Positions 3,669 through 31,845 of a stretch of 32,542 bases of DNA are shown one piece after another. Location of the stretch: contig WRFW01000222.1 in assembly GCA_009787435.1 (NCBI GenBank), positions 1-32,542 on the forward strand, in the 5' to 3' direction. This stretch comes from Defluviitaleaceae bacterium. GTDB taxonomy: Bacteria; Bacillota; Clostridia; Lachnospirales; UBA5962. A program made the position numbers and the translations under genes. Below the pieces are notes generated by a model that saw only the letters and a program-made list of their open reading frames with translations, did no database searches and was not told the DNA's origin. Position 1 is the first letter of the stretch; every line of letters begins with the position of its first letter.

Positions 3669-4583
3669 TTATTCTTTCATAGCTTTTGATTTTTCAACAC
3701 AAGCCGAAACGCCACTTATAATTGCATTTCTAAACCCTTGCCGCTCCAACTCACAAACAGCAGCAATAGTAGCACCCCCGGGGCTGCAAACAGCATCTTT
3801 AAGCTCTGCGGGGTGCTTACCTGTCTCAAGCACCATAGAAGCTGCCCCTAATAAAGCTTGTGCTGAAAATTTTATAGCTTGGTCTCTCGGTATGCCGTGT
3901 TTCACACCTGCATCTGCCATTGCTTCAATAAACATAAAAGCATAAGCAGGCGAGCTTCCCGCAATGCCTGTGAAAGCATCAAATAAGTTTTCATTTAAAA
4001 ATGTTACTTTGCCTATAGTTTCAAATATATTAAAAACTAGCTCTGTATCTTCTTTAGTTAAGTTGCGTATATCTTCGGTTTGCTCATTTTGAAACTGTAA
4101 ATGAAAGCTATTAGAAGATGCTAATTGTGCTGAATTGTTTAAACCTTGCGAAGTTTCATTTTTTACAATAGCTGTAATCCCTGAGTTAACTAATGATGGA
4201 GTATTTGGCATAGTTTTAATAATTTTAAGGTCTGGTCTGTTAAATTTTTCTGTTACTGAAGCTAAGCTTTGCCCAGCAGCAATGATAACTATAATCGCAC
4301 CCTTTTTAGTAGCTTTGCGGATTTCTTCTATAACTAAGCTATAAATATGCGGTTTTATACAAAGAAAAATAATATCTGCTTTTGAAGCTATTTCTTCGTT
4401 GCTAAGGCTAGTATAAACATTATATGTTTCTTTAATTTTATTAAGCTTAGCTTCGTTAGTGCTTGAAACTAAAATATTAGAAGCTCTAACAAAGTTAGAT
4501 TTTAAAACACCACCAATAATAGCAGAGCCCATATTGCCAGTGCCACCTATAAAGCCTAGCTTTAAATCTTTTTTTATAGACAT
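3669..4583 (-). CDS. proC: pyrroline-5-carboxylate reductase with an internal low-complexity insertion
   Basis: GFIGGTGNMGSAI Rossmann motif, MPNTPSLV, GSSPAYAFMFIEA and SPGGATI motifs. AGGAGG RBS. Confidence 0.88.
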   Translation of the reverse strand: MSIKKDLKLGFIGGTGNMGSAIIGGVLKSNFVRASNILVSSTNEAKLNKIKETYNVYTSLSNEEIASKADIIFLCIKPHIYSLVIEEIRKATKKGAIIVIIAAGQSLASVTEKFNRPDLKIIKTMPNTPSLVNSGITAIVKNETSQGLNNSAQLASSNSFHLQFQNEQTEDIRNLTKEDTELVFNIFETIGKVTFLNENLFDAFTGIAGSSPAYAFMFIEAMADAGVKHGIPRDQAIKFSAQALLGAASMVLETGKHPAELKDAVCSPGGATIAAVCELERQGFRNAIISGVSACVEKSKAMKE

Positions 4584-4659
4584 TTTAACCTCCTATCCAG
4601 CTTTGCTGAGGATTGAGAGAGATAAATAAGTATTGATTATTTTAAAAAAGTTCATCTCA

Positions 4660-4697: not shown

Positions 4698-4805
4698 AAT
4701 AAAGAAGCTGCTACAATACTAGACCAAAGTTAAAAAACTAATTTTCTGCCCAAAGAGTGCCAGAGTAAGTAGCTAAAGTTCCTCCTGTTTGTGAAAAATA
4801 AGAAG

Positions 4806-4973
4806 CTAACCTAAGCGTTCCTCCCCATCTTCTGTTGTAGCAGACCACCAAGAAAATAAATCATTTTCTGAAGCAGGTTCTAATTCATAAGAGTAGCTAA
4901 GAGTTTGGTTAGCACTAACATTGTTGCTAAAAACTAGAAAAATAATTAACAAGCTTGATAAATATTTTTTCAT
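4806..4973 (-). CDS. small secreted peptide (MKKYLSSLLIIFLVFSNNVSA|NQTLSYSYELEPASENDLFSWWSATTEDGEERLG), possibly truncated by a frameshift
   Basis: AGGAGG lies 9 nt upstream of the ATG at 4973. Clear signal-peptide-like N-terminus. The ORF is below the 60-aa cutoff of the ORF track. Confidence 0.5.
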   Translation of the reverse strand: MKKYLSSLLIIFLVFSNNVSANQTLSYSYELEPASENDLFSWWSATTEDGEERLG

Positions 4974-5099
4974 TAACATTTACCTCCTAAGTTTAATATA
5001 GTTACATAAAAAGTTAATTTTATGCAACCTATTACGTTTCTAAAAAAAGACTAGTATATGCAAAGCAAACTTCTTGAAAAGATTATATCATTATTTTAA

Positions 5100-5882
5100 T
5101 CATTTGTCAATATTTTTTTGGATTGCTATTTTAATCAATTGGTTAGACATAACATTGTAAATATCTTTATAATTTTCTGGCAAGGCTTCTAAATGAGATT
5201 TAACAGTCTCTAGATCTCCACGCTCAATTGGACCTGTTAATGCGTTTATACTACCTTTTGATTTTATATTATTAATAGTAGTTTCTACTAGACCCATTAA
5301 CATTTCTGTGTTTTGAATGCCAGCTTCTTTGAGTACATTTTCAGCAATATTATAAATTCCAACTAAAAAATTAGAAGCTATTACAGCCGCTGCATGATAT
5401 AGCGGCTTAGCTTCTTTTTTAATTATTTGATTGTTTGGAAATAGCTCTTTTATTATGTGAATATGTTTGCTATCACCCTCTATAGTAAACATTATTTTTT
5501 TTAAGTCTGTTTCTTTTGTAACAGCTGCCATTGGATGTATTGAAAAGCCTATATTATCTTTAAACAAATCGGAAGCCAAAAAGCCAGACATATGGCAAAA
5601 TATAATTTTGCCACTTGCAATGGAAGCTATGCCATCGGAAAAACTACCGTCGCTAAGAGTAGGAACTAAAGGAAAGTTAGCTTCCAAACTGCCTTTTGAA
5701 ATATGATTATTGGCTAAATAAGTTTTAATTTGTTCATAGACTTCTTTAATTTTGCTATCTGGCGTTGCAATGAAAATAATATTTGCATTTTTGGTTTCTT
5801 CTATATTTTTTGTAGGTGTTATTCCGAGATAAGAACCAAGAGCAGTGCCAACTTTCCCACAACCAATTATACACTTTTTCAT
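5100..5882 (-). CDS. Rossmann-fold NAD(P) oxidoreductase, DUF2520 / ProC-like family
   Basis: N-terminal IIGCGKVGTALG dinucleotide-binding motif. Length and C-terminal helical domain fit DUF2520-type proteins. The start overlaps the upstream stop (ATGA). Confidence 0.7.
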   Translation of the reverse strand: MKKCIIGCGKVGTALGSYLGITPTKNIEETKNANIIFIATPDSKIKEVYEQIKTYLANNHISKGSLEANFPLVPTLSDGSFSDGIASIASGKIIFCHMSGFLASDLFKDNIGFSIHPMAAVTKETDLKKIMFTIEGDSKHIHIIKELFPNNQIIKKEAKPLYHAAAVIASNFLVGIYNIAENVLKEAGIQNTEMLMGLVETTINNIKSKGSINALTGPIERGDLETVKSHLEALPENYKDIYNVMSNQLIKIAIQKNIDK

Positions 5883-7024
5883 TGATTTACTACTAGAGGA
5901 ATGCTGTTTTCTTCTAGCTTTGGCGGTTCAGAGCTATTAACTGCTTTGCTTTTACAAGATTGCAAAAAATTTATAAAATCATAAACCATTGTTAAATCGG
6001 ATTCATTAAAATTGCTAGTGATAAATTTAATTTTTTGAAATATGTTAGATTTCTCATTAATTGTAGTGTTGCCCTCATTTTTGCCATATAAAAGCTCATC
6101 TAATGGGGTATCTAATATATATGCTAATTCAAGCATTCTATATGTAGGGAAGCTTCGCTCACCGCTTTCAAAAAGAATTAAGTGGCTTTTGCTAATGTCT
6201 AATTTTTCTGCAAAATCTTCTGCTTCAAAATTTAAGCTTTCCCTAATAGTTTTTACGCTTGAACCAATTAAAATACCAAAATGCCTTTTAGTGAGATTAA
6301 TACCCTTGCTAGGTCTATATCTTCTAACTTCATCTTTAGCGACATTATAAAGAGGTCTATCTTTCATTTTTTCAAGAAGCTCTAAATTTTGAGTTAAAAA
6401 TTCAGAATCTTCATCAAATATGCCTGCTCTTAATAAAGCAAAAGTTTCAAACTTCTTAAGTTCATCACCTTTTCTTTCGGAGATAGATAACACATTATTA
6501 AGGTGTGCTTTAAAAAGAGACTTAGCATTATTTAAACGTTTAGGCTCTTTTAAATGGTCTATTTCTAAAAATTTTGCTTTTAATATTCTTGATAACATAT
6601 TAATATGAATAAAAAAGCTTATACGAACAGTAGGAACTTCATCTACATATTTATTTAAAGCTGCCAAAGTCAAACTACAAAGTTTTTCAGCTTCTTCAAA
6701 ACTTTGTACCCACATTAAAACTAATTGTGAAATTCTTATATCACCAATATCCCAACTAGTAACAGGCAAATTCATAAGCCTATTAAAAACAGGCAATACA
6801 AGTTTATAAATTTCTTTAAAATCAACTTTTTGATTTTCAGCTTCATAAGCTTTAAGTATTTTCAAAATATCTAAAAGTTGTATATCTTCCTTGCCATCCT
6901 CTTTATGGTACTTTTCAATATCTTTCTTTAATTTTTCAGCCTTATCAATATTTTTATAGTTACCACCCAAAGAAGAAAACTCTTTTAATAAGTTTTCTTT
7001 ACTGATGATGTTAGTTTTCTGCAA
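5879..7024 (-). CDS. atypical XRE-family transcriptional regulator: about 240-aa helical N-terminal domain followed by an HTH
   Basis: TTG start 6 nt after GGAGGG. XRE-type HTH at about aa 245-312 (SVKTIRESLNFEAEDFAEKLDISKSHLILFESGERSFPTYRMLELAYILDTPLDELL). Confidence 0.75.
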   Translation of the reverse strand: MQKTNIISKENLLKEFSSLGGNYKNIDKAEKLKKDIEKYHKEDGKEDIQLLDILKILKAYEAENQKVDFKEIYKLVLPVFNRLMNLPVTSWDIGDIRISQLVLMWVQSFEEAEKLCSLTLAALNKYVDEVPTVRISFFIHINMLSRILKAKFLEIDHLKEPKRLNNAKSLFKAHLNNVLSISERKGDELKKFETFALLRAGIFDEDSEFLTQNLELLEKMKDRPLYNVAKDEVRRYRPSKGINLTKRHFGILIGSSVKTIRESLNFEAEDFAEKLDISKSHLILFESGERSFPTYRMLELAYILDTPLDELLYGKNEGNTTINEKSNIFQKIKFITSNFNESDLTMVYDFINFLQSCKSKAVNSSEPPKLEENSIPLVVNQ

Positions 7025-7039
7025 ATCAAGCCCTCCTAT

Positions 7040-7099
7040 CTAATCCCAACCTTCTGATATATTAGCATCTAGCGGGCGGATTTTAATTTCAATTCTCAT
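7040..7099 (-). CDS. 19-aa peptide, copy 1: MRIEIKIRPLDANISEGWD
   Basis: ATG 7 nt after AGGAGGGA. Its stop lies 15 nt upstream of the regulator start. It is a paralogue of two upstream copies that carry synonymous differences. Confidence 0.6.
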   Translation of the reverse strand: MRIEIKIRPLDANISEGWD

Positions 7100-7146
7100 T
7101 TTCTATCCCTCCTAAATTCTTTTTAGTTTTTATAAAAGGCAACTTA

Positions 7147-7206
7147 CTAATCCCAACCATCTGAAATATTTGCAGTTAAAGGCCGTATTTCAATTTTAAT
7201 TCTCAT
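7147..7206 (-). CDS. 19-aa peptide, copy 2: MRIKIEIRPLTANISDGWD
   Basis: Own AGGAGGGA RBS. Same length and frame as copies 1 and 3. Confidence 0.6.
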   Translation of the reverse strand: MRIKIEIRPLTANISDGWD

Positions 7207-7280
7207 TTTTTATCCCTCCTAAATTTCTTATAGTAATTTTCTGAAACCAAGCCTATTTAATTTTCTAAAAGGCAATAATA

Positions 7281-7340
7281 CTATTCAAAGCTGTCTGTTA
7301 TATTAGCACCTAACGGGCGTATCTTAATTTCAATTCTCAT
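7281..7340 (-). CDS. 19-aa peptide, copy 3: MRIEIKIRPLGANITDSFE
   Basis: Own AAGGAGAGGGA RBS. First gene after the promoter. Confidence 0.6.
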   Translation of the reverse strand: MRIEIKIRPLGANITDSFE

Positions 7341-7374
7341 TTTTCCCTCTCCTTATATTAGTTTCTTATAGAAA

Positions 7375-7403
7375 ATTATATCACATTTTCATATTTTTTG
7401 CAA
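7375..7403 (-). promoter_or_regulatory. promoter TTGCAA-17-TG-n-TATAAT driving the peptide/regulator operon
   Basis: Minus strand: TTGCAA (7398-7403), 17 nt spacer ending TGA, TATAAT (7375-7380), about 35 nt upstream of the copy 3 ATG. Confidence 0.55.
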
Positions 7404-7481
7404 GGCTTTTTCAGAAAAAACTACAAAAAAAGCCCCAAAAACAAAGCTTTATTAACTTTCTAATAAAATCACAAACAGCAT

Positions 7482-7511
7482 TTGACAATTGAAGTAAGTT
7501 TGTAGTAATAT
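7482..7511 (+). promoter_or_regulatory. promoter TTGACA-18-TAATAT for the small acidic protein gene
   Basis: TTGACA at 7482-7487 and TAATAT at 7506-7511. Divergent from the peptide operon promoter. Confidence 0.5.
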
Positions 7512-7563
7512 ATTACTTGTTAGTAATTTACTAAACATTATTTTGCAAAAAGGAGAAACCAAA

Positions 7564-7797
7564 ATGGTAAAATTTAAAGAACTATATACAAAAGCATTTA
7601 ACGAACAAACAGAGGTGTTGGAAACTCTAAAAGAATACCAACAAGAAGCAGAAGAAGTTTTCTTAAACATAGAAGATTATGAAGAAGCGTACAAAGAAGC
7701 TTATTTAAAACTTTTTGAAGCCCACACCGAAGCAATAGAATTTATTAAAAATTCTCAGCTGAAAAGCGAAGAGCTTTATTTAGAAATGGCTGTATAA
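7564..7797 (+). CDS. 77-aa acidic all-helical protein, function unknown
   Basis: ATG at 7564, 7 nt after AAAGGAGA. Followed by a clean terminator. I do not favour the TTG-extended version in the ORF track. Confidence 0.6.
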   Translation: MVKFKELYTKAFNEQTEVLETLKEYQQEAEEVFLNIEDYEEAYKEAYLKLFEAHTEAIEFIKNSQLKSEELYLEMAV

Positions 7798-14375: not shown

Positions 14376-14448
14376 TGCGCCTTACAGGAATTGAACCTGC
14401 GACCTGTAGGTCCGGAGCCTACCGCTCTATCCACTGAGCTAAAGACGC
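14376..14448 (-). tRNA. tRNA-Arg (anticodon CCG)
   Basis: Hand-folded cloverleaf. Acceptor GCGTCTT/AAGGCGC, D arm GCTC-AGTGGATA-GAGC, anticodon arm GTAGG-CTCCGGA-CCTAC, T arm GCAGG-TTCAATT-CCTGT, discriminator A. No encoded CCA. Confidence 0.85.
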
Positions 14449-29251: not shown

Positions 29252-31489
29252 TTAATTGCTTAGTTCTATTCTAACGCTATTTATTATAATTGCTTGCAAA
29301 TTTTCTAAATCTATTATTCCTGGGCTAGTTCTAAATTGCAAGTTACTTTCATGGCGACTAATTGGATGTGAATAAAAACTGCTTCCTGTAGCAGTTGGGG
29401 TTATTCTACCAAATTGAACACCTGGCATTAAGCTAATAAACTGAGGAGTATTGCTATAAATAATTTGGCTATAGTTTTCATATTCCAAAATTATTTGCAA
29501 ATCAAGCGGCAATGCTAGTTCATCCACAACCATTGCTAGCTCTGCACCATTTTCTATAGTAAATGAAAACTCACTTGAAGTTAAAACTATATTTGAAAGA
29601 TTAAAACTTTCATTTGATATTTCAACAGCTATATCATTAAAATATAGCGGGCTAACATTTGCTATAGGGCTTTCAAACTCAAAATCAATATTTAAATTAA
29701 TTGTATGCTCAAAAACCATTGATTGTAAAAATGAGTTCATAGACATAACTTCAAAAGTCTCTCCTGTCCTAACATCAATTACTTTTGATATCTCTACTTC
29801 ATCTTCTATTGCAGATATAATTGTTGAAACTTCTTCTGTTATTGGTGTTATCATGCGGAAGCTAGCGTATCTTTCTACTGGCAGTTCTCTCATTTCTATA
29901 AAGCCTACATTAATTGTTGCAATATCTAGTGTTCTTGTTGAATCTCTAGGCTCTTGCCCCTCTATTTCTATATGCCATTGATGCTCTAAGAGATATAAAA
30001 CGCCATCTTCTTCATGAAGCAAATGAACGAGAGATAAACTACCATCACTTCTTAAAAATTGAGGTGTAAACTCTCCATATTCATTAAAGAAGTTTAAATC
30101 TCCGCTGTTATCACTTAATGAAAAAATATTAAATTTACGTAAATTCTCAATAGTAACTTTTTCAGGGGTATACGTTTCATCTATTTGCCCGTCTTCTAGC
30201 CAAAGGAAGTTATAAAAGCTAAACTCTGAAGTAAGTGAAACAGTGTATAACACTTCTATAGTTATTTGGTCTGCTGTGTAAATTAAATTTAAAGGAGCAG
30301 CATTTCTTAACGCTAATCCATACCCTGCCCCAAAAGCACGATAAAATAACTTATTTGTGATACTTTCAAAATATTGCTGCTCACCATTTTGTACGTTTAT
30401 TTCTACAGCATTAAGCTGCACACCTCTCGTTGCAAATATTGTAACTGCTGTGGCAACGGTTGCAACAGCAAAAACATTTCTTAATAAATTTGTCTTTTTA
30501 CTTTTCATAAGAACACCTATCCTTTCTTCTATGTTATTGTTAAAAGTGTTTATTAACGGAGAAACCTTTAATTTTTCCACGTGTGTTAATTCTTTAATGT
30601 TTGCAAAAGAAAGAAGAGTTAAACAATAGTCTTTTTTGCTTGAACTGCCAAAGTGTGTGTTTAAATTTTTTATTACTATTTCATCACAAGAAAGCTCTAT
30701 ATCTCTATTTAGCATAAAATACATAACCCAAACGAAAGGGTTAAACCAATGCAAGCAAAGGCTGAGCGTTGCAAGTAATTTTATTAAGGAATCAAACCTT
30801 TTTATGTGTACGAGCTCATGATTTAAGACGAACTGAAGAGCAGATTCATCAATATTTTTCGGTAAAATTATAACTGGTCTAAATATACCATAAGTTAAAG
30901 GACCTAAAACTTTATCACTAGTTTTTATGCGTATGTTCCGTTTAATTTTATTTTCTGCTAACCATTTTGAACAAGAAAATGTTTCTAAAGGAAGTGCTTG
31001 AGCAAAATCTTTTAATGAACTTAAATATATTTTTGTGAAAAATAGTAACATAATAACTGCAACCGCTAGCCAAACTAAAATTAGAGGGTTAACCAAATAT
31101 AAAATATTGTTAGTTAACGAAGTTTCTTCTGATTGAAGAAGAATCGGGGTTATTTGATTTTCATTTGAAAACTCTTCTAATAACATTTGCGGAATGAAGC
31201 TAGCGGCTTGAGGTAGGTTTATAACTTGATATAATTCTGGATATAGTTCTAAAAACTGTGATTGTTCTAATTGATAATCAAAATTTTGAGGCAGGTAAGA
31301 AGCTTGAAATAAATTAAAAATACTCATTTCAGACTGTATAGAAATTGGCACTAATAACTTTACTAATACTGCAAACCATAAAAATAAAAATGTTGATTTA
31401 GAAAAATGATATAGTGCCAAAAATCGTATAACTAAAGTTACTATAATTAATAAACTTGCAAAAAAGCTCATCTCTAATATATTCATCAT
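29252..31489 (-). CDS. BlaR1/MecR1-family M56 peptidase signal transducer with a large non-PBP extracytoplasmic C-terminal domain
   Basis: N-terminal TM segments, HELVHIKRFD zinc motif, a further TM segment at about aa 335-355, then about 390 aa with no recognisable motifs. 4-nt overlap with blaI. Confidence 0.75.
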   Translation of the reverse strand: MMNILEMSFFASLLIIVTLVIRFLALYHFSKSTFLFLWFAVLVKLLVPISIQSEMSIFNLFQASYLPQNFDYQLEQSQFLELYPELYQVINLPQAASFIPQMLLEEFSNENQITPILLQSEETSLTNNILYLVNPLILVWLAVAVIMLLFFTKIYLSSLKDFAQALPLETFSCSKWLAENKIKRNIRIKTSDKVLGPLTYGIFRPVIILPKNIDESALQFVLNHELVHIKRFDSLIKLLATLSLCLHWFNPFVWVMYFMLNRDIELSCDEIVIKNLNTHFGSSSKKDYCLTLLSFANIKELTHVEKLKVSPLINTFNNNIEERIGVLMKSKKTNLLRNVFAVATVATAVTIFATRGVQLNAVEINVQNGEQQYFESITNKLFYRAFGAGYGLALRNAAPLNLIYTADQITIEVLYTVSLTSEFSFYNFLWLEDGQIDETYTPEKVTIENLRKFNIFSLSDNSGDLNFFNEYGEFTPQFLRSDGSLSLVHLLHEEDGVLYLLEHQWHIEIEGQEPRDSTRTLDIATINVGFIEMRELPVERYASFRMITPITEEVSTIISAIEDEVEISKVIDVRTGETFEVMSMNSFLQSMVFEHTINLNIDFEFESPIANVSPLYFNDIAVEISNESFNLSNIVLTSSEFSFTIENGAELAMVVDELALPLDLQIILEYENYSQIIYSNTPQFISLMPGVQFGRITPTATGSSFYSHPISRHESNLQFRTSPGIIDLENLQAIIINSVRIELSN

Positions 31490-31845
31490 TCCCCCTCCTC
31501 AATTTGTTTCTTCAATTTTTCAAACATATCTGAAGAAATTTTTCTTCTACCTACCAAGCTTGCAAATAGCAATTCTTTAGAACCACCAAAAAGTTTATTA
31601 ACGAGTTCTTCAACTTCTGCATGCTGAACTTCTTCTTTAGTAACAATTGCTTCACAAACAAAGTTTGGGTCTATACGGTTAATTGCACCTTTTTCGATAC
31701 ATTTTTTTATAACTGTGTAAGTAGTATTTTTGTTCCAACCAATTTCTTTATTTAGCAAAGTGGCAATTTCTTTTGCAGTGAGCATATTTTGGCTCCACAA
31801 CACCTCCATAACTTTTAATTCAGAATCAAAGAGTTTAATGGCCAT
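31486..31845 (-). CDS. BlaI/MecI/CopY family winged-helix repressor
   Basis: 119 aa. SELKVMEVLWSQNMLTAKEIATLL...WNKNTTYTVIKKCIEKGAI is typical of the Penicillinase_R family. AGGAGGGA RBS. Confidence 0.85.
   Translation of the reverse strand: MAIKLFDSELKVMEVLWSQNMLTAKEIATLLNKEIGWNKNTTYTVIKKCIEKGAINRIDPNFVCEAIVTKEEVQHAEVEELVNKLFGGSKELLFASLVGRRKISSDMFEKLKKQIEEGE

What the first reader, a model, noticed from the sequence alone, without database searches (positions are those of the whole stretch)
5879..7403. Three tandem paralogous 19-aa peptide genes feeding directly into an atypical XRE-family regulator
Three minus-strand mini-ORFs lie between the regulator start (7024) and a near-consensus promoter (7375-7403). 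They are below the ORF-track cutoff. Sequences: 7281-7340 MRIEIKIRPLGANITDSFE, 7147-7206 MRIKIEIRPLTANISDGWD, 7040-7099 MRIEIKIRPLDANISEGWD. Each has its own AGGAGGGA-type RBS at ideal spacing, and all are exactly 19 codons. The copies differ mainly at synonymous sites: Ile7 ATC/ATA, Arg8 CGC/CGG, Pro9 CCG/CCT, Leu10 CTA/TTA, Ala12 GCT/GCA, Ile14 ATA/ATT. The other differences are conservative (E/K swap, S/T, D/E, W/F). That is the signature of selection on the peptide rather than on a nucleotide repeat. The last peptide stops 15 nt before the regulator's TTG start. The regulator has its HTH at about aa 245-312, after a helical domain of about 240 aa, which reverses the domain order of classical RNPP/Rgg regulators. 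Its stop overlaps the start of a DUF2520 oxidoreductase (ATGA). The peptides have no signal peptide and no Cys, and no radical-SAM, ATP-grasp or ABC exporter gene is nearby. They therefore fit no peptide system I recognise. Possibilities: leaderless pheromones in the style of ComS/SHP, direct intracellular ligands or anti-regulators, substrates of the coupled oxidoreductase, or regulatory leader peptides.
Basis: partly seen in the sequence, partly recalled or inferred. Interest (0 to 1): 0.85.

Follow-up and report, generated by a model that had tools for sequence, protein, structure and literature searches.

The report
Peptide genes feeding a reversed Rgg-like regulator
Three tiny 19-codon genes sit directly in front of a DNA-binding regulator whose probable peptide-binding domain resembles known Gram-positive pheromone receptors but lies at the opposite end of the protein, and this peptide-plus-regulator pairing recurs across a large, unstudied protein family found so far mainly in uncultured Defluviitaleaceae, so it looks like an overlooked type of peptide signalling module.

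Summary
Three minus-strand 19-codon ORFs (7281-7340, 7147-7206, 7040-7099) each have a strong ribosome-binding site. They lie behind a near-consensus promoter and ahead of a 381-aa regulator and a DUF2520 gene. They are real genes. The paralogues differ mostly at synonymous sites. Related short ORFs sit immediately upstream of 10 of the 13 regulator homologues I could inspect (down to 20-25% identity), and in an eleventh the peptide-like segment is fused in frame to the regulator. The regulator belongs to an uncurated family with more than 100 clusters at 50% identity, named only "helix-turn-helix protein", mostly in Defluviitaleaceae MAGs. Its N-terminal domain folds with high confidence (pLDDT 91.5) into a TPR-like repeat. 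The best PDB matches are Rgg2, PlcR and ComR, and the commonest weak Pfam hit is Rgg_C. The HTH is C-terminal, an order not found in described RRNPP receptors. A palindrome (TTTTCTGAAAA) abuts the -35 box here and in three related loci. Two distant members sit directly upstream of radical-SAM RiPP clusters, as streptococcal shp/rgg does. Best reading: these are cognate leaderless peptide ligands of a domain-reversed Rgg-like receptor in an autoregulated operon. Binding and export are inferred, not shown.

The parts
7408..7418 (.). Palindrome TTTTCTGAAAA, 4 nt upstream of the -35 box. Candidate operator of the regulator.
   Evidence: It is the only exact TTTTCWGAAAA in the 32.5-kb window (0.21 expected). 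The same or a near-identical element abuts the -35 box in L008, L017 and L013.
7375..7403 (-). Sigma-70-type promoter TTGCAA-17-(TG)TATAAT of the peptide-regulator operon
   Evidence: It matches 10 of 12 consensus positions plus an extended -10 TG. No terminator-like site lies between it and the end of the DUF2520 gene.
7281..7340 (-). Peptide gene 1, MRIEIKIRPLGANITDSFE (RBS 7345-7354)
7237..7246 (.). Second, partial copy of the palindrome (TTTCAGAAAA) between peptide genes 1 and 2
   Evidence: inverted repeat I5. L017 also has an exact copy downstream of its promoter.
7147..7206 (-). Peptide gene 2, MRIKIEIRPLTANISDGWD (RBS 7214-7220)
7040..7099 (-). Peptide gene 3, MRIEIKIRPLDANISEGWD (RBS 7107-7113). 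Its stop lies 15 nt before the regulator start.
6299..7024 (-). Regulator, N-terminal TPR-like (Rgg_C-like) domain, aa 1-242. Putative peptide-binding domain. TTG start; RBS 7031-7037.
   Evidence: AF2 model with pLDDT 91.5, ten helices. Foldseek top PDB hits are Rgg2, PlcR-PapR, ComR and a Listeria Rgg-like protein, TM 0.48-0.59. Pfam Rgg_C is the commonest weak hit among family N-domains.
6092..6256 (-). Regulator, XRE-type HTH_3 DNA-binding domain, aa 257-311
   Evidence: Pfam HTH_3 and HTH_19. PDB sequence and fold matches to SinR, P22 C2 and 434 repressors.
5879..6091 (-). Regulator C-terminal tail, aa 312-381. Predicted helical, low confidence, poorly conserved.
5100..5882 (-). DUF2520 Rossmann-type gene, translationally coupled to the regulator (ATGA overlap). 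Probable co-transcribed cargo.
   Evidence: Pfam DUF2520, E 7e-35. The same gene follows the regulator in L001.

Best explanation
The three 19-aa ORFs are paralogous genes for short peptides without a signal sequence. They are the cognate ligands of the regulator encoded just downstream. The regulator is a distant, domain-reversed relative of Rgg/RRNPP pheromone receptors: an N-terminal TPR-like domain that binds the peptide, then a C-terminal XRE helix-turn-helix that binds DNA. One promoter drives peptides, regulator and the DUF2520 gene as a single mRNA. The regulator, translated from a weak TTG start 15 nt after the last peptide's stop, is probably translationally coupled to that peptide. 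A regulator dimer with peptide bound would sit on the palindrome TTTTCTGAAAA next to the -35 box and change transcription of its own operon, giving an autoinduction loop. By analogy with SHP, ComS and LCP peptides, the peptides (or C-terminal fragments such as ANISEGWD) would leave the cell and re-enter, making this a cell-density signal. Three slightly different copies would raise dosage or give several signal variants. Shown here: the ORFs are real and conserved as peptides, the peptide-regulator pairing holds across the family, the fold resembles Rgg/PlcR/ComR, and the operator-like palindrome is conserved. Inferred: binding of peptide to the N-terminal domain, binding of regulator to the palindrome, and the direction of regulation. 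Least certain: export and re-import.
For: (1) Coding. The paralogues have pN/pS of about 0.2-0.4 with third-position bias, and each has a strong RBS. The leader RNA is less structured than all 100 shuffles (z +2.55), as expected for translated sequence rather than a structured RNA. (2) Conserved pairing. The only close homologue of the regulator (P0002, 51% identity) has two intact 20-aa ORFs, MYIAEVKVKP[AL]D[GT]NFSGGFD, in the same place, followed by DUF2520. Homologues at 20-35% identity carry related RBS-preceded ORFs of 15-28 aa ending 1-77 nt before the regulator start: L002, L003, L005, L008 (2 copies), L009 (3 copies), L013, L017 (2 copies) and L018. That is 10 of 13 regulators inspected. 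(3) Natural fusion. In P0059 the peptide-like segment (MKNTKITISFGVIGAPVAPDDGN...) is fused in frame to the regulator N-terminus on 5 contigs, which supports a direct physical relationship. (4) Peptide type tracks receptor clade: Mantel r 0.78-0.85, p 5e-5. (5) Fold. The N-domain model has pLDDT 91.5. Its best PDB hit is the SHP receptor Rgg2, and PlcR-PapR7, ComR-ComS, AimR and Rap are also listed. Rgg_C is the most frequent weak Pfam hit (4 of 25 members, best E 4e-4). (6) Operator. The only exact palindrome in the window abuts the -35 box, and the same arrangement occurs in L008, L017 and L013. (7) Family behaviour resembles Rgg. At least three paralogues appear to come from one MAG, judged from neighbouring accession numbers. 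Downstream cargo varies between loci, and in L003 and L002 it is a radical-SAM RiPP cluster. This parallels shp/rgg-controlled RaS-RiPP operons (PMC13361665). (8) Leaderless secreted peptide signals have precedent (PMC10518010).
Against: Foldseek E-values are weak (0.08-0.5) and TM-scores are 0.5-0.6, a level that generic TPR proteins such as LGN also reach. The window's peptides are amphipathic and charged (GRAVY -0.1 to -0.45, net charge 0 or -1), unlike hydrophobic SHP/ComS peptides, so export is doubtful. No Opp, PptAB or Eep gene is in the window. The fusion variant fits an intracellular ligand as well as a secreted one. Two of the 13 homologues (L014, L015/16) have no recognisable related upstream ORF. 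The Mantel test is inflated by shared ancestry. A separate 55-aa ORF with a Sec signal lies nearby and could be the real secreted signal.
Confidence: 0.55

Rival explanations
1. The peptides are purely intracellular partners. They are never exported. They are made stoichiometrically with the regulator from the same mRNA and act as a co-factor, anti-regulator or tethered-ligand equivalent. The system would then report translation, proteolysis or peptide turnover inside the cell rather than cell density.
For: The window's peptides are charged and amphipathic and lack any signal-like hydrophobic stretch. The peptide-like segment is fused to the regulator in P0059. Spacing between the last peptide gene and the regulator is tight, 1-49 nt in most loci. 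No transporter or protease genes are linked.
Against: Most relatives' peptides have a basic-then-hydrophobic N-half and a polar, acidic C-half (L002, L003, L005, L009, L013). That is the layout of SHP-type and PrgQ-type propeptides that are exported. Several diverged tandem copies are easier to explain as signal dosage or variety. Leaderless peptides are known to be secreted without recognisable signals (PMC10518010).
Confidence: 0.2
2. The ORFs are cis-acting regulatory leader peptides (upstream ORFs). Their translation, or ribosome pausing at the conserved Pro and C-terminal residues, sets how much regulator is made from its weak TTG start. The peptide product itself has no function.
For: The length matches classic leader peptides of 9-24 codons (from my own knowledge, not checked here). 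The regulator has a TTG start 15 nt after the last stop codon, with its RBS in that gap. A central Pro is conserved in all copies.
Against: The leader RNA has no alternative structure: it folds worse than all 100 shuffles, and there is no terminator. Three copies with their own RBS are unnecessary for coupling. Only the last copy is near the regulator; the others end 122 and 256 nt upstream. Peptide type is conserved and tracks the receptor across 20-50% identity. One lineage has the peptide fused to the receptor, which leaves no stop codon to couple on. In L008 the last peptide ends 77 nt before the regulator.
Confidence: 0.1
3. The ORFs are precursors of a ribosomally synthesised, post-translationally modified peptide (RiPP), with a conserved N-terminal leader and a variable C-terminal core. 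They would be modified by the DUF2520 oxidoreductase or by unlinked enzymes, and the regulator would simply control the cluster.
For: Tandem paralogous short ORFs with a conserved N-half and a variable C-half are typical of RiPP precursors. Distant family members sit directly upstream of radical-SAM/PqqD/CPBP-protease/ABC clusters. DUF2520 is translationally coupled to the regulator here.
Against: The window has no RiPP enzyme, RRE or exporter. In the loci that do have radical-SAM clusters, separate longer precursor-like genes are present (75 aa in L003; MSKKIKETYNPP... x2 in L002), while the short ORF stays attached to the regulator, upstream of it. DUF2520 is absent from most family loci. 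The short ORF accompanies the regulator whatever the cargo.
Confidence: 0.08
4. The real pheromone precursor is the 55-aa Sec-signal ORF at 4806-4972(-), in classical RRNPP style, and the 19-aa ORFs have some other or no role.
For: The ORF has a strong RBS, a canonical signal peptide (MKKYLSSLLIIFLVFSNNVSA|NQ...) and a 12/12 consensus promoter directly after the operon. L003 and L005 also have signal-peptide ORFs of 62-71 aa next to the module. In L005 that ORF follows an HTH-less paralogue of the receptor domain, an arrangement like Rap-Phr.
Against: A signal-peptide ORF was seen near only 3 of 13 regulators; my heuristic scan flagged two of them and L005 was seen by eye. The three ORFs are not alignable with each other. 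Here the ORF is separated from the regulator by DUF2520 and has its own promoter without the palindrome. This reading does not explain the conserved short ORFs.
Confidence: 0.05
5. The repeat is non-coding: an array of regulator binding sites or a decaying DNA duplication, with ORFs open by chance.
For: One copy in L001 (51-119) is degenerate, lacking an RBS and an ATG and carrying an indel. This shows the copies turn over.
Against: Substitutions are biased to synonymous sites. Every copy has an RBS. The ORFs are intact and the peptide motifs are conserved in loci whose DNA no longer aligns. There is a fusion variant.
Confidence: 0.02

Closest known systems
Rgg/SHP and ComR/ComS (XIP) systems of streptococci (RRNPP family)
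   Same: A cytoplasmic XRE-HTH regulator carries a TPR-like all-helical ligand domain; Rgg2 is the best PDB fold match and ComR is also listed, and Rgg_C is the commonest weak Pfam hit. The peptide genes are very short (15-28 codons) and unannotated, lack a Sec signal, and are adjacent to the receptor. Several family peptides end in an aromatic residue such as Trp, which I recall as typical of XIP peptides (not checked here). A palindromic site lies next to the -35 box. There are many paralogues per genome, cargo varies between loci, and some members sit next to radical-SAM RiPP operons (PMC13361665).
   Different: The domain order is reversed, with the HTH C-terminal plus a 60-70 aa tail. There is no significant sequence similarity outside the HTH. 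The peptide genes lie co-directionally upstream in the same operon, in 1-3 tandem copies. The window's peptides are charged and amphipathic rather than hydrophobic.
RopB/LCP (leaderless communication peptide, e.g. SIP) systems
   Same: The peptide signal has no secretion or processing leader and is encoded by a tiny ORF that annotation pipelines miss. It acts on an adjacent cytosolic receptor (PMC10518010).
   Different: SIP, the founding LCP, is an 8-aa peptide translated directly as the mature signal. Here the ORFs are 19 aa with a conserved N-half that may be removed. The receptors are not in the RopB clan and have the opposite domain order.
PlcR/PapR, NprR/NprX, Rap/Phr and AimR/AimP (classical RRNPP)
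   Same: A TPR-type receptor is paired with an adjacent small peptide gene, and the PlcR-PapR7 and AimR structures are among the fold hits. L005 has an HTH-less paralogue followed by a signal-peptide ORF, which resembles Rap-Phr.
   Different: The classical propeptides are longer and carry a secretion signal, and the HTH, when present, is N-terminal (PMC9765709; bioRxiv 10.1101/2023.09.19.558401). RRNPP_detector explicitly discarded clusters whose TPR region was N-terminal (PMC10075063).
SinR/SinI-type XRE repressor with a small protein antagonist
   Same: SinR gives the best sequence and fold match to the HTH domain. A small co-encoded polypeptide would control an XRE regulator inside the cell.
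   Different: SinI is a longer protein that mimics SinR's oligomerisation helices (from my own knowledge). Here the partner is a 19-aa peptide and the regulator has a 240-aa TPR-like domain.

Membership tests
RRNPP(A) / Rgg-type peptide receptors | TPR or TPR-like helical-repeat domain that binds the peptide | tested here: inconclusive
   The N-domain AF2 model has pLDDT 91.5. The Foldseek top hit is Rgg2 6w1a_A (TMq 0.56, E 0.08). PlcR (0.52), ComR (0.48), a Listeria Rgg-like protein 4ryk (0.59), AimR and Rap are also listed, but so are generic TPR proteins such as LGN. Pfam Rgg_C gives a weak hit in 4 of 25 members, best E 4e-4 and below the curated cut-off. Peptide binding was not tested.
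RRNPP(A) / Rgg-type peptide receptors | [quoted passage not shown] | tested here: not met
   HTH_3 lies at aa 257-311 of 381, and the repeat domain at aa 1-242. All of the more than 100 full-length family members share this order. The literature describes only an N-terminal HTH (PMC9765709; bioRxiv 10.1101/2023.09.19.558401).
RRNPP(A) / Rgg-type peptide receptors | Small peptide gene immediately adjacent to the receptor gene | tested here: met
   Three copies in the window. A related upstream ORF is present in 10 of 13 homologous loci, and it is fused to the receptor in one more.
RRNPP(A) / Rgg-type peptide receptors | Propeptide is secreted, processed and re-imported (Sec or PptAB, Eep, Opp) | not testable with these tools
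   The peptides have no Sec-type signal (sequence), and no Opp, PptAB or Eep gene is in the window. The rest of the genome was not available.
SHP / ComS short hydrophobic peptides | Short peptide with a basic N-terminus, a hydrophobic body, and the mature signal at the C-terminus | tested here: not met
   The window's peptides have GRAVY -0.11 to -0.45 and alternate Ile with charged residues. Relatives in L008, L009, L002-L005 and L013 do fit this layout.
LCP (leaderless communication peptides) / RopB | Ultrasmall ORF encoding the mature peptide directly, about 8 aa in SIP, with a receptor in the RopB clan | tested here: not met
   The ORFs are 19 aa. The receptor shows no sequence relationship to Rgg/RopB beyond the HTH. 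The definition comes from PMC10518010.
XRE-family (HTH_3) transcription regulators | Cro/C1-type helix-turn-helix domain | tested here: met
   Pfam HTH_3 scores 26.7 bits against a cut-off of 23. The PDB profile search gives SinR, P22 C2 and 434 repressors at E 1e-5 to 2e-9, and the fold search agrees.
RiPP precursor peptides | Co-located modifying enzyme, recognition element (RRE) or exporter | tested here: not met
   None found in the window. NCBIfam has no model that matches the related short upstream-ORF peptides of L001, L002, L003, L009 and L018; the window's own 19-aa peptides are below the tool's 20-residue minimum and were not scanned.
Attenuation-type regulatory leader peptides (Erm/Cat/Tna style) | Alternative mRNA structures or a terminator coupled to translation of the leader | tested here: not met
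   The leader RNA 7010-7368 has an MFE of -48.1 against a shuffle mean of -58.8 (z +2.55). No terminator-like site lies in the operon.

The most novel reading that the evidence does not exclude
This is a distinct class of peptide-gated transcription factor. A TPR-like sensor domain precedes the HTH, and the ligand is a co-translated peptide that is never exported, a 'self-made' ligand that in one lineage has become a tethered N-terminal segment. The module would measure an intracellular variable such as peptide turnover, proteolysis or translation capacity instead of cell density. It would have arisen by domain permutation of, or independently from, Rgg-type quorum sensors, and would control RiPP clusters and other accessory genes in Defluviitaleaceae.
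Probability: 0.2. Interest if true: 0.8.

Novelty: new variant of a known kind. Interest (0 to 1): 0.68.

Why it matters
Peptide quorum sensing through RRNPP receptors is described as always having the HTH N-terminal. At least one large-scale detector, RRNPP_detector, discards candidates whose repeat region is N-terminal (PMC10075063). It also requires signal-bearing propeptides, so a family like this one would not be catalogued. Here is a family of more than 100 sequence clusters with the opposite layout, each member paired with unannotated 15-28-codon genes. If the peptides are ligands, the known design space of Gram-positive peptide signalling grows. There would be a new set of receptor-peptide pairs, some directly upstream of radical-SAM RiPP clusters and so useful for activating silent clusters. 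It would also be a natural test of whether receptor function tolerates domain permutation. The finding further shows how much signalling capacity is hidden in uncultured Defluviitaleaceae, which are gut bacteria of termites.

Tried and rejected
(1) Word-indexed protein search with the regulator alone found only one homologue. With a 70-sequence family alignment it was swamped and returned 3. The exhaustive HMMER search was what revealed the family.
(2) The genome contigs and metagenome-contig scans returned one locus and two already-known loci. The viral-contig scan found nothing: one search failed because the alignment was too diverse, and one search gave no relative. tblastn of the N-domain against PLSDB plasmids and INPHARED phages gave no match. 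The family is therefore not seen in sequenced plasmids or phages.
(3) Pfam and NCBIfam have no model for the N-domain or for the related peptides that could be scanned.
(4) The first fold search with the full-length model was dominated by HTH hits. It was re-done with the N-domain alone. The BFVD viral library gave nothing meaningful.
(5) Stop-codon read-through fusion. The peptide gene nearest the regulator is in frame with it in the window, L001, L002 and L003, but not in L005, a close relative of L003. I therefore treated this as chance.
(6) Attenuator or structured-RNA reading: rejected.
(7) Rfam found only a tRNA in the window.
(8) Literature searches for a reversed-order RRNPP/Rgg receptor, for Defluviitaleaceae peptide signalling and for DUF2520 function found nothing relevant.


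Full report
OBSERVATION. Reading the minus strand of 5700-7600 confirms three 19-codon ORFs:
- 7281-7340, MRIEIKIRPLGANITDSFE
- 7147-7206, MRIKIEIRPLTANISDGWD
- 7040-7099, MRIEIKIRPLDANISEGWD

Each is preceded by a strong Shine-Dalgarno sequence: AAGGAGAGGG at 7345-7354 for the first, and AGGAGGG at 7214-7220 and 7107-7113 for the other two. A 26-nt degenerate pattern built on their 5' ends matches only these three sites in 32.5 kb, with none in 100 shuffles. The repeat finder reports one 88-nt family of three copies, 83% and 70% identical. The promoter at 7403-7375(-) is TTGCAA-17-TATAAT with an extended -10 TG, and no terminator-like site lies between it and the end of the DUF2520 gene. The last peptide's stop is 15 nt before the TTG start of a 381-aa ORF (5879-7024), and that ORF's AGGAGGG site lies in the gap. 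The 381-aa ORF's stop overlaps the ATG of a DUF2520 gene (5100-5882) as ATGA. Pfam finds only an XRE-type HTH (HTH_3, aa 257-311) in the 381-aa protein. Pfam scans of all ORFs of at least 90 aa show ordinary chromosomal genes (tsaD, proC, MCP, PFOR, fumarase, methylaspartate ammonia-lyase, radA, MatE, MFS, BlaR1/BlaI). None is a radical-SAM, ATP-grasp or ABC exporter gene. The window's methylaspartate ammonia-lyase shares a 90%-identity cluster with a protein of a Defluviitaleaceae MAG, so the organism is an uncultured Defluviitaleaceae with 33.5% G+C.

ARE THE ORFS GENES? Between the three paralogues the proportion of synonymous differences (0.35-0.60) is 2.3-4.6 times that of non-synonymous differences (0.11-0.20), and third positions change most. 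A rough Fisher test on the most diverged pair gives p of about 0.008. The 359-nt leader RNA folds worse than every one of 100 dinucleotide shuffles (z +2.55). This argues against a structured RNA or an attenuator and fits translated sequence.

The strongest evidence is comparative. The regulator has a single close homologue among 5.8 billion clustered proteins (P0002, 51% identity). Its 1.8-kb metagenome contig (L001) has, in the same position, two intact RBS-preceded 20-codon ORFs, MYIAEVKVKPADGNFSGGFD and MYIAEVKVKPLDTNFSGGFD. It also has one decayed copy. These are followed by the regulator (again with a TTG start) and a DUF2520 gene.

THE FAMILY. A profile of five regulators, searched exhaustively against 1.84 billion representatives, found 87 proteins at E<=1e-30 and 920 at E<=1e-10. 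More than 100 of the best 150 are full-length (330-395 aa) with the same architecture and a conserved N-terminal motif LLxEFFxLGGN. Of ten members looked up, five are named only 'helix-turn-helix domain-containing protein' or 'helix-turn-helix transcriptional regulator' from Defluviitaleaceae MAGs, two are JGI 'transcriptional regulator with XRE-family HTH domain', and three carry no name. Three of them have neighbouring accession numbers, which suggests they come from one MAG. Neither Pfam nor NCBIfam has a model for the N-terminal 240 residues.

I could inspect the DNA around 13 different regulators. Ten have one to three related short ORFs with an RBS, ending 1-77 nt before the regulator start:
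- L002: MKVKAPVVVIPFGGIIKPNLPEEDNNG
- L003: MKAPIVVIPFGGGGKPNLPEDE
- L005: MKKPVVTPIIPFGGVGKPTLPEEG
- L008: MLLFSLFVPFFKSEPIIDW and MFYILDIVLLAPRDFVGWA
- L009: three copies of M[RT]FLGIL(F)SIMPLG...GDEE/GDTD, each duplicated together with the first 43 codons of the regulator
- L013: MKKILQIIVKPNNDLVFTD
- L017: MSNIIKINPASWLVGFGRD and MLQTNIKINPASWLW
- L018: MIKKCLKPSLLSRDSLSGGFD
- plus the window and L001

The shared plan is 15-28 residues with a beta-strand-like N-half ending in a Pro. In nearly all copies the C-terminal residue is acidic (Asp or Glu) or the last few residues include an aromatic residue or an acidic run. In an eleventh regulator (P0059, seen on five contigs) the homologous segment MKNTKITISFGVIGAPVAPDDGN... 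is fused in frame to the regulator's N-terminus. Two regulators (L014, L015/16) have no recognisable relative of the peptide. Peptide similarity tracks regulator similarity (Mantel r 0.78-0.85, p 5e-5). This statistic is inflated by common descent. It is still informative, because the intergenic DNA of these loci is no longer recognisably similar. Within loci, the residues just after the Pro vary most between copies: G, T and D in the window, and ADG against LDT in L001.

WHAT IS THE REGULATOR? The full-length AF2 model was mediocre (pLDDT 68.5) and its fold search returned mostly HTH proteins. The N-terminal domain alone, with a 25-sequence alignment, folds with pLDDT 91.5 into ten helices. 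Its best PDB match is the SHP pheromone receptor Rgg2 (6w1a_A, TMq 0.56). The list also contains a Listeria Rgg-like regulator (4ryk, 0.59), PlcR with PapR7 (0.52), ComR with ComS (0.48), AimR and Rap, alongside generic TPR proteins such as LGN. All E-values are weak, at 0.08 or above. Independently, Pfam Rgg_C is the most frequent sub-threshold hit of the N-domains (4 of 25, best E 4e-4).

So the domain is TPR-like and most resembles the peptide-binding domain of Rgg-type receptors, but homology is not proven. The domain order is the reverse of every described RRNPP receptor. Reviews state that the HTH is N-terminal (PMC9765709; bioRxiv 10.1101/2023.09.19.558401). The RRNPP_detector pipeline explicitly discarded clusters with an N-terminal TPR region (PMC10075063). 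Literature searches found no description of such a receptor.

OPERATOR AND CARGO. The only exact occurrence of the palindrome TTTTCWGAAAA in the window (0.21 expected) is at 7408-7418, 4 nt upstream of the -35 box. The same 14-mer TTTTTTCTGAAAAA sits 4 nt upstream of the -35 box of the peptide promoter in L008, whose regulator is 34% identical. Close variants occupy the same place in L017 (TTTTTCTTAGAAA) and L013 (TTTTTATGGAAAAA). This position suits an activator contacting RNA polymerase, as Rgg, ComR and PlcR sites do (from my own knowledge of those systems), and implies autoregulation.

Genes downstream of the regulator differ between loci:
- DUF2520 in the window and L001
- proteins of 1,633 aa (L008) and 1,761 aa (L018) with no Pfam match
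- a Listeria-Bacteroides-repeat protein (L005)
- L003: a 75-aa precursor-like gene, a CPBP protease, a radical-SAM enzyme and an ABC exporter
- L002: a NusG/LoaP-like gene, two small precursor-like ORFs, BtrH_N, PqqD and a B12-radical-SAM enzyme

A conserved peptide-regulator pair in front of variable cargo, including radical-SAM RiPP clusters, is the pattern of streptococcal shp/rgg loci (PMC13361665).

MECHANISM. The best-supported reading (confidence 0.55) is as follows. The 19-aa products are cognate ligands of the regulator's N-terminal repeat domain. The peptide-bound dimer acts at the palindrome to autoregulate the operon, which includes DUF2520. The three diverged copies raise dosage or provide signal variants. 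Whether the peptides act from outside the cell is the weakest step. Leaderless secreted signals exist (PMC10518010), and most relatives have an SHP-like layout of a basic, hydrophobic N-half and a polar C-half. The window's own peptides, however, are charged and amphipathic. The natural fusion fits an intracellular ligand equally well.

Rivals:
- An exclusively intracellular partner (0.20).
- A cis-acting upstream ORF that tunes translation of the TTG-initiated regulator (0.10). This is weakened by the lack of RNA structure, the distance of copies 1 and 2 from the regulator, the peptide-level conservation and the fusion.
- RiPP precursors (0.08). This is weakened because there are no enzymes here and because separate precursors exist where enzymes are present.
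- The nearby 55-aa Sec-signal ORF as the true pheromone (0.05).
- Non-coding repeat (0.02).

VERDICT. It is one instance, amplified to three copies, of a conserved peptide-plus-receptor module belonging to a sizeable uncharacterised family. I class it as a new variant of a known kind: it works like Rgg/RRNPP signalling but fails the family's architectural definition, and homology is unproven. Binding, DNA recognition and export all remain to be tested.

Noticed in passing
window 4806-4972 (-), promoter 5082-5110 (-): An unannotated small ORF, MKKYLSSLLIIFLVFSNNVSA|NQTLSYSYELEPASENDLFSWWSATTEDGEERLG (55 aa from the second ATG). It has an AGGAGGT ribosome-binding site and a Sec-type signal peptide. 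It lies behind a perfect 12/12 TTGACA-17-TATAAT promoter directly after the DUF2520 gene. It could be a regulated target or a classical secreted pro-pheromone.
   Followed up: partly
L010:3001-4020 (also L011, L012): Regulator homologue P0059 carries the peptide-like segment (MKNTKITISFGVIGAPVAPDDGNTSKKVTE) fused in frame to its N-terminus, on five contigs. A further 35-aa ORF, MRNRRREIVIRPFNG..., lies 274 nt upstream (2619-2726).
   Followed up: partly
L009:4374-5001: A three-fold tandem duplication. Each unit holds a 26-28-aa peptide gene plus the first 43 codons of the regulator, which are called as two 43-aa genes at 4481-4612 and 4739-4870. Only the last unit continues into a full-length regulator.
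   Followed up: partly
L005:4699-5721: A 266-aa paralogue of the regulator's N-terminal domain that lacks the HTH. It is followed immediately by a 71-aa ORF with a signal peptide. This Rap-Phr-like arrangement lies just upstream of the short-ORF/regulator pair. L003 has a 62-aa signal-peptide ORF in the same place (5625-5813).
   Followed up: no
L003:7383-11530 and L002:2587-7251: RiPP-like gene clusters lie directly downstream of distant regulator homologues. L003 has a 75-aa precursor-like gene, a CPBP/Rce1-like protease, a radical-SAM enzyme and an ABC exporter. L002 has a NusG/LoaP-like gene, two small ORFs (MSKKIKETYNPP..., MSRKIKETYNPP...), BtrH_N, PqqD, a B12-binding radical-SAM enzyme and a VTC-domain protein.
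   Followed up: partly
window 7040-7099 and 5879-7024; L001, L002, L003: The peptide gene nearest the regulator is in the same reading frame as the regulator in four of five loci checked, but not in L005. The regulator uses a TTG start in the window, L001 and L013. The frame match is probably chance. The TTG start and the short gap suggest translational coupling.
   Followed up: partly
L001:51-119: A decayed third copy of the peptide gene: TTG in place of ATG, no RBS, a two-codon deletion and a diverged C-terminus. It is followed by a hairpin (CTAGAAGCGAAGTGCTTCTAG). This shows that copies are gained and lost.
   Followed up: no
window 7543-7797 (+): An 84-aa acidic ORF with no family match, predicted helical by eye only. 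It is transcribed divergently from the peptide promoter (promoter-like site at 7482-7511) and shares the 140-bp control region, which also holds a second palindrome, AACAAAGCTTTATT, at 7440-7453.
   Followed up: no
window 3669-4583 (-): The proC gene (pyrroline-5-carboxylate reductase) matches its NCBIfam model in two stretches, with roughly 35 extra residues at about aa 135-174. This looks like an insertion relative to the family model.
   Followed up: no
L013 (whole 6.7-kb contig): One family member (P0015, peptide MKKILQIIVKPNNDLVFTD) lies on a small contig with a Mob_Pre relaxase and a MazE antitoxin, so it is probably a mobilisable plasmid. However, tblastn found no relative of the window's regulator N-domain in PLSDB plasmids or INPHARED phages.
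   Followed up: partly
window 14376-14448 (-); 29252-31845 (-): A tRNA gene is the only Rfam match in the window. A BlaR1 (peptidase M56) and BlaI (penicillinase repressor) pair lies at the right end.
   Followed up: no
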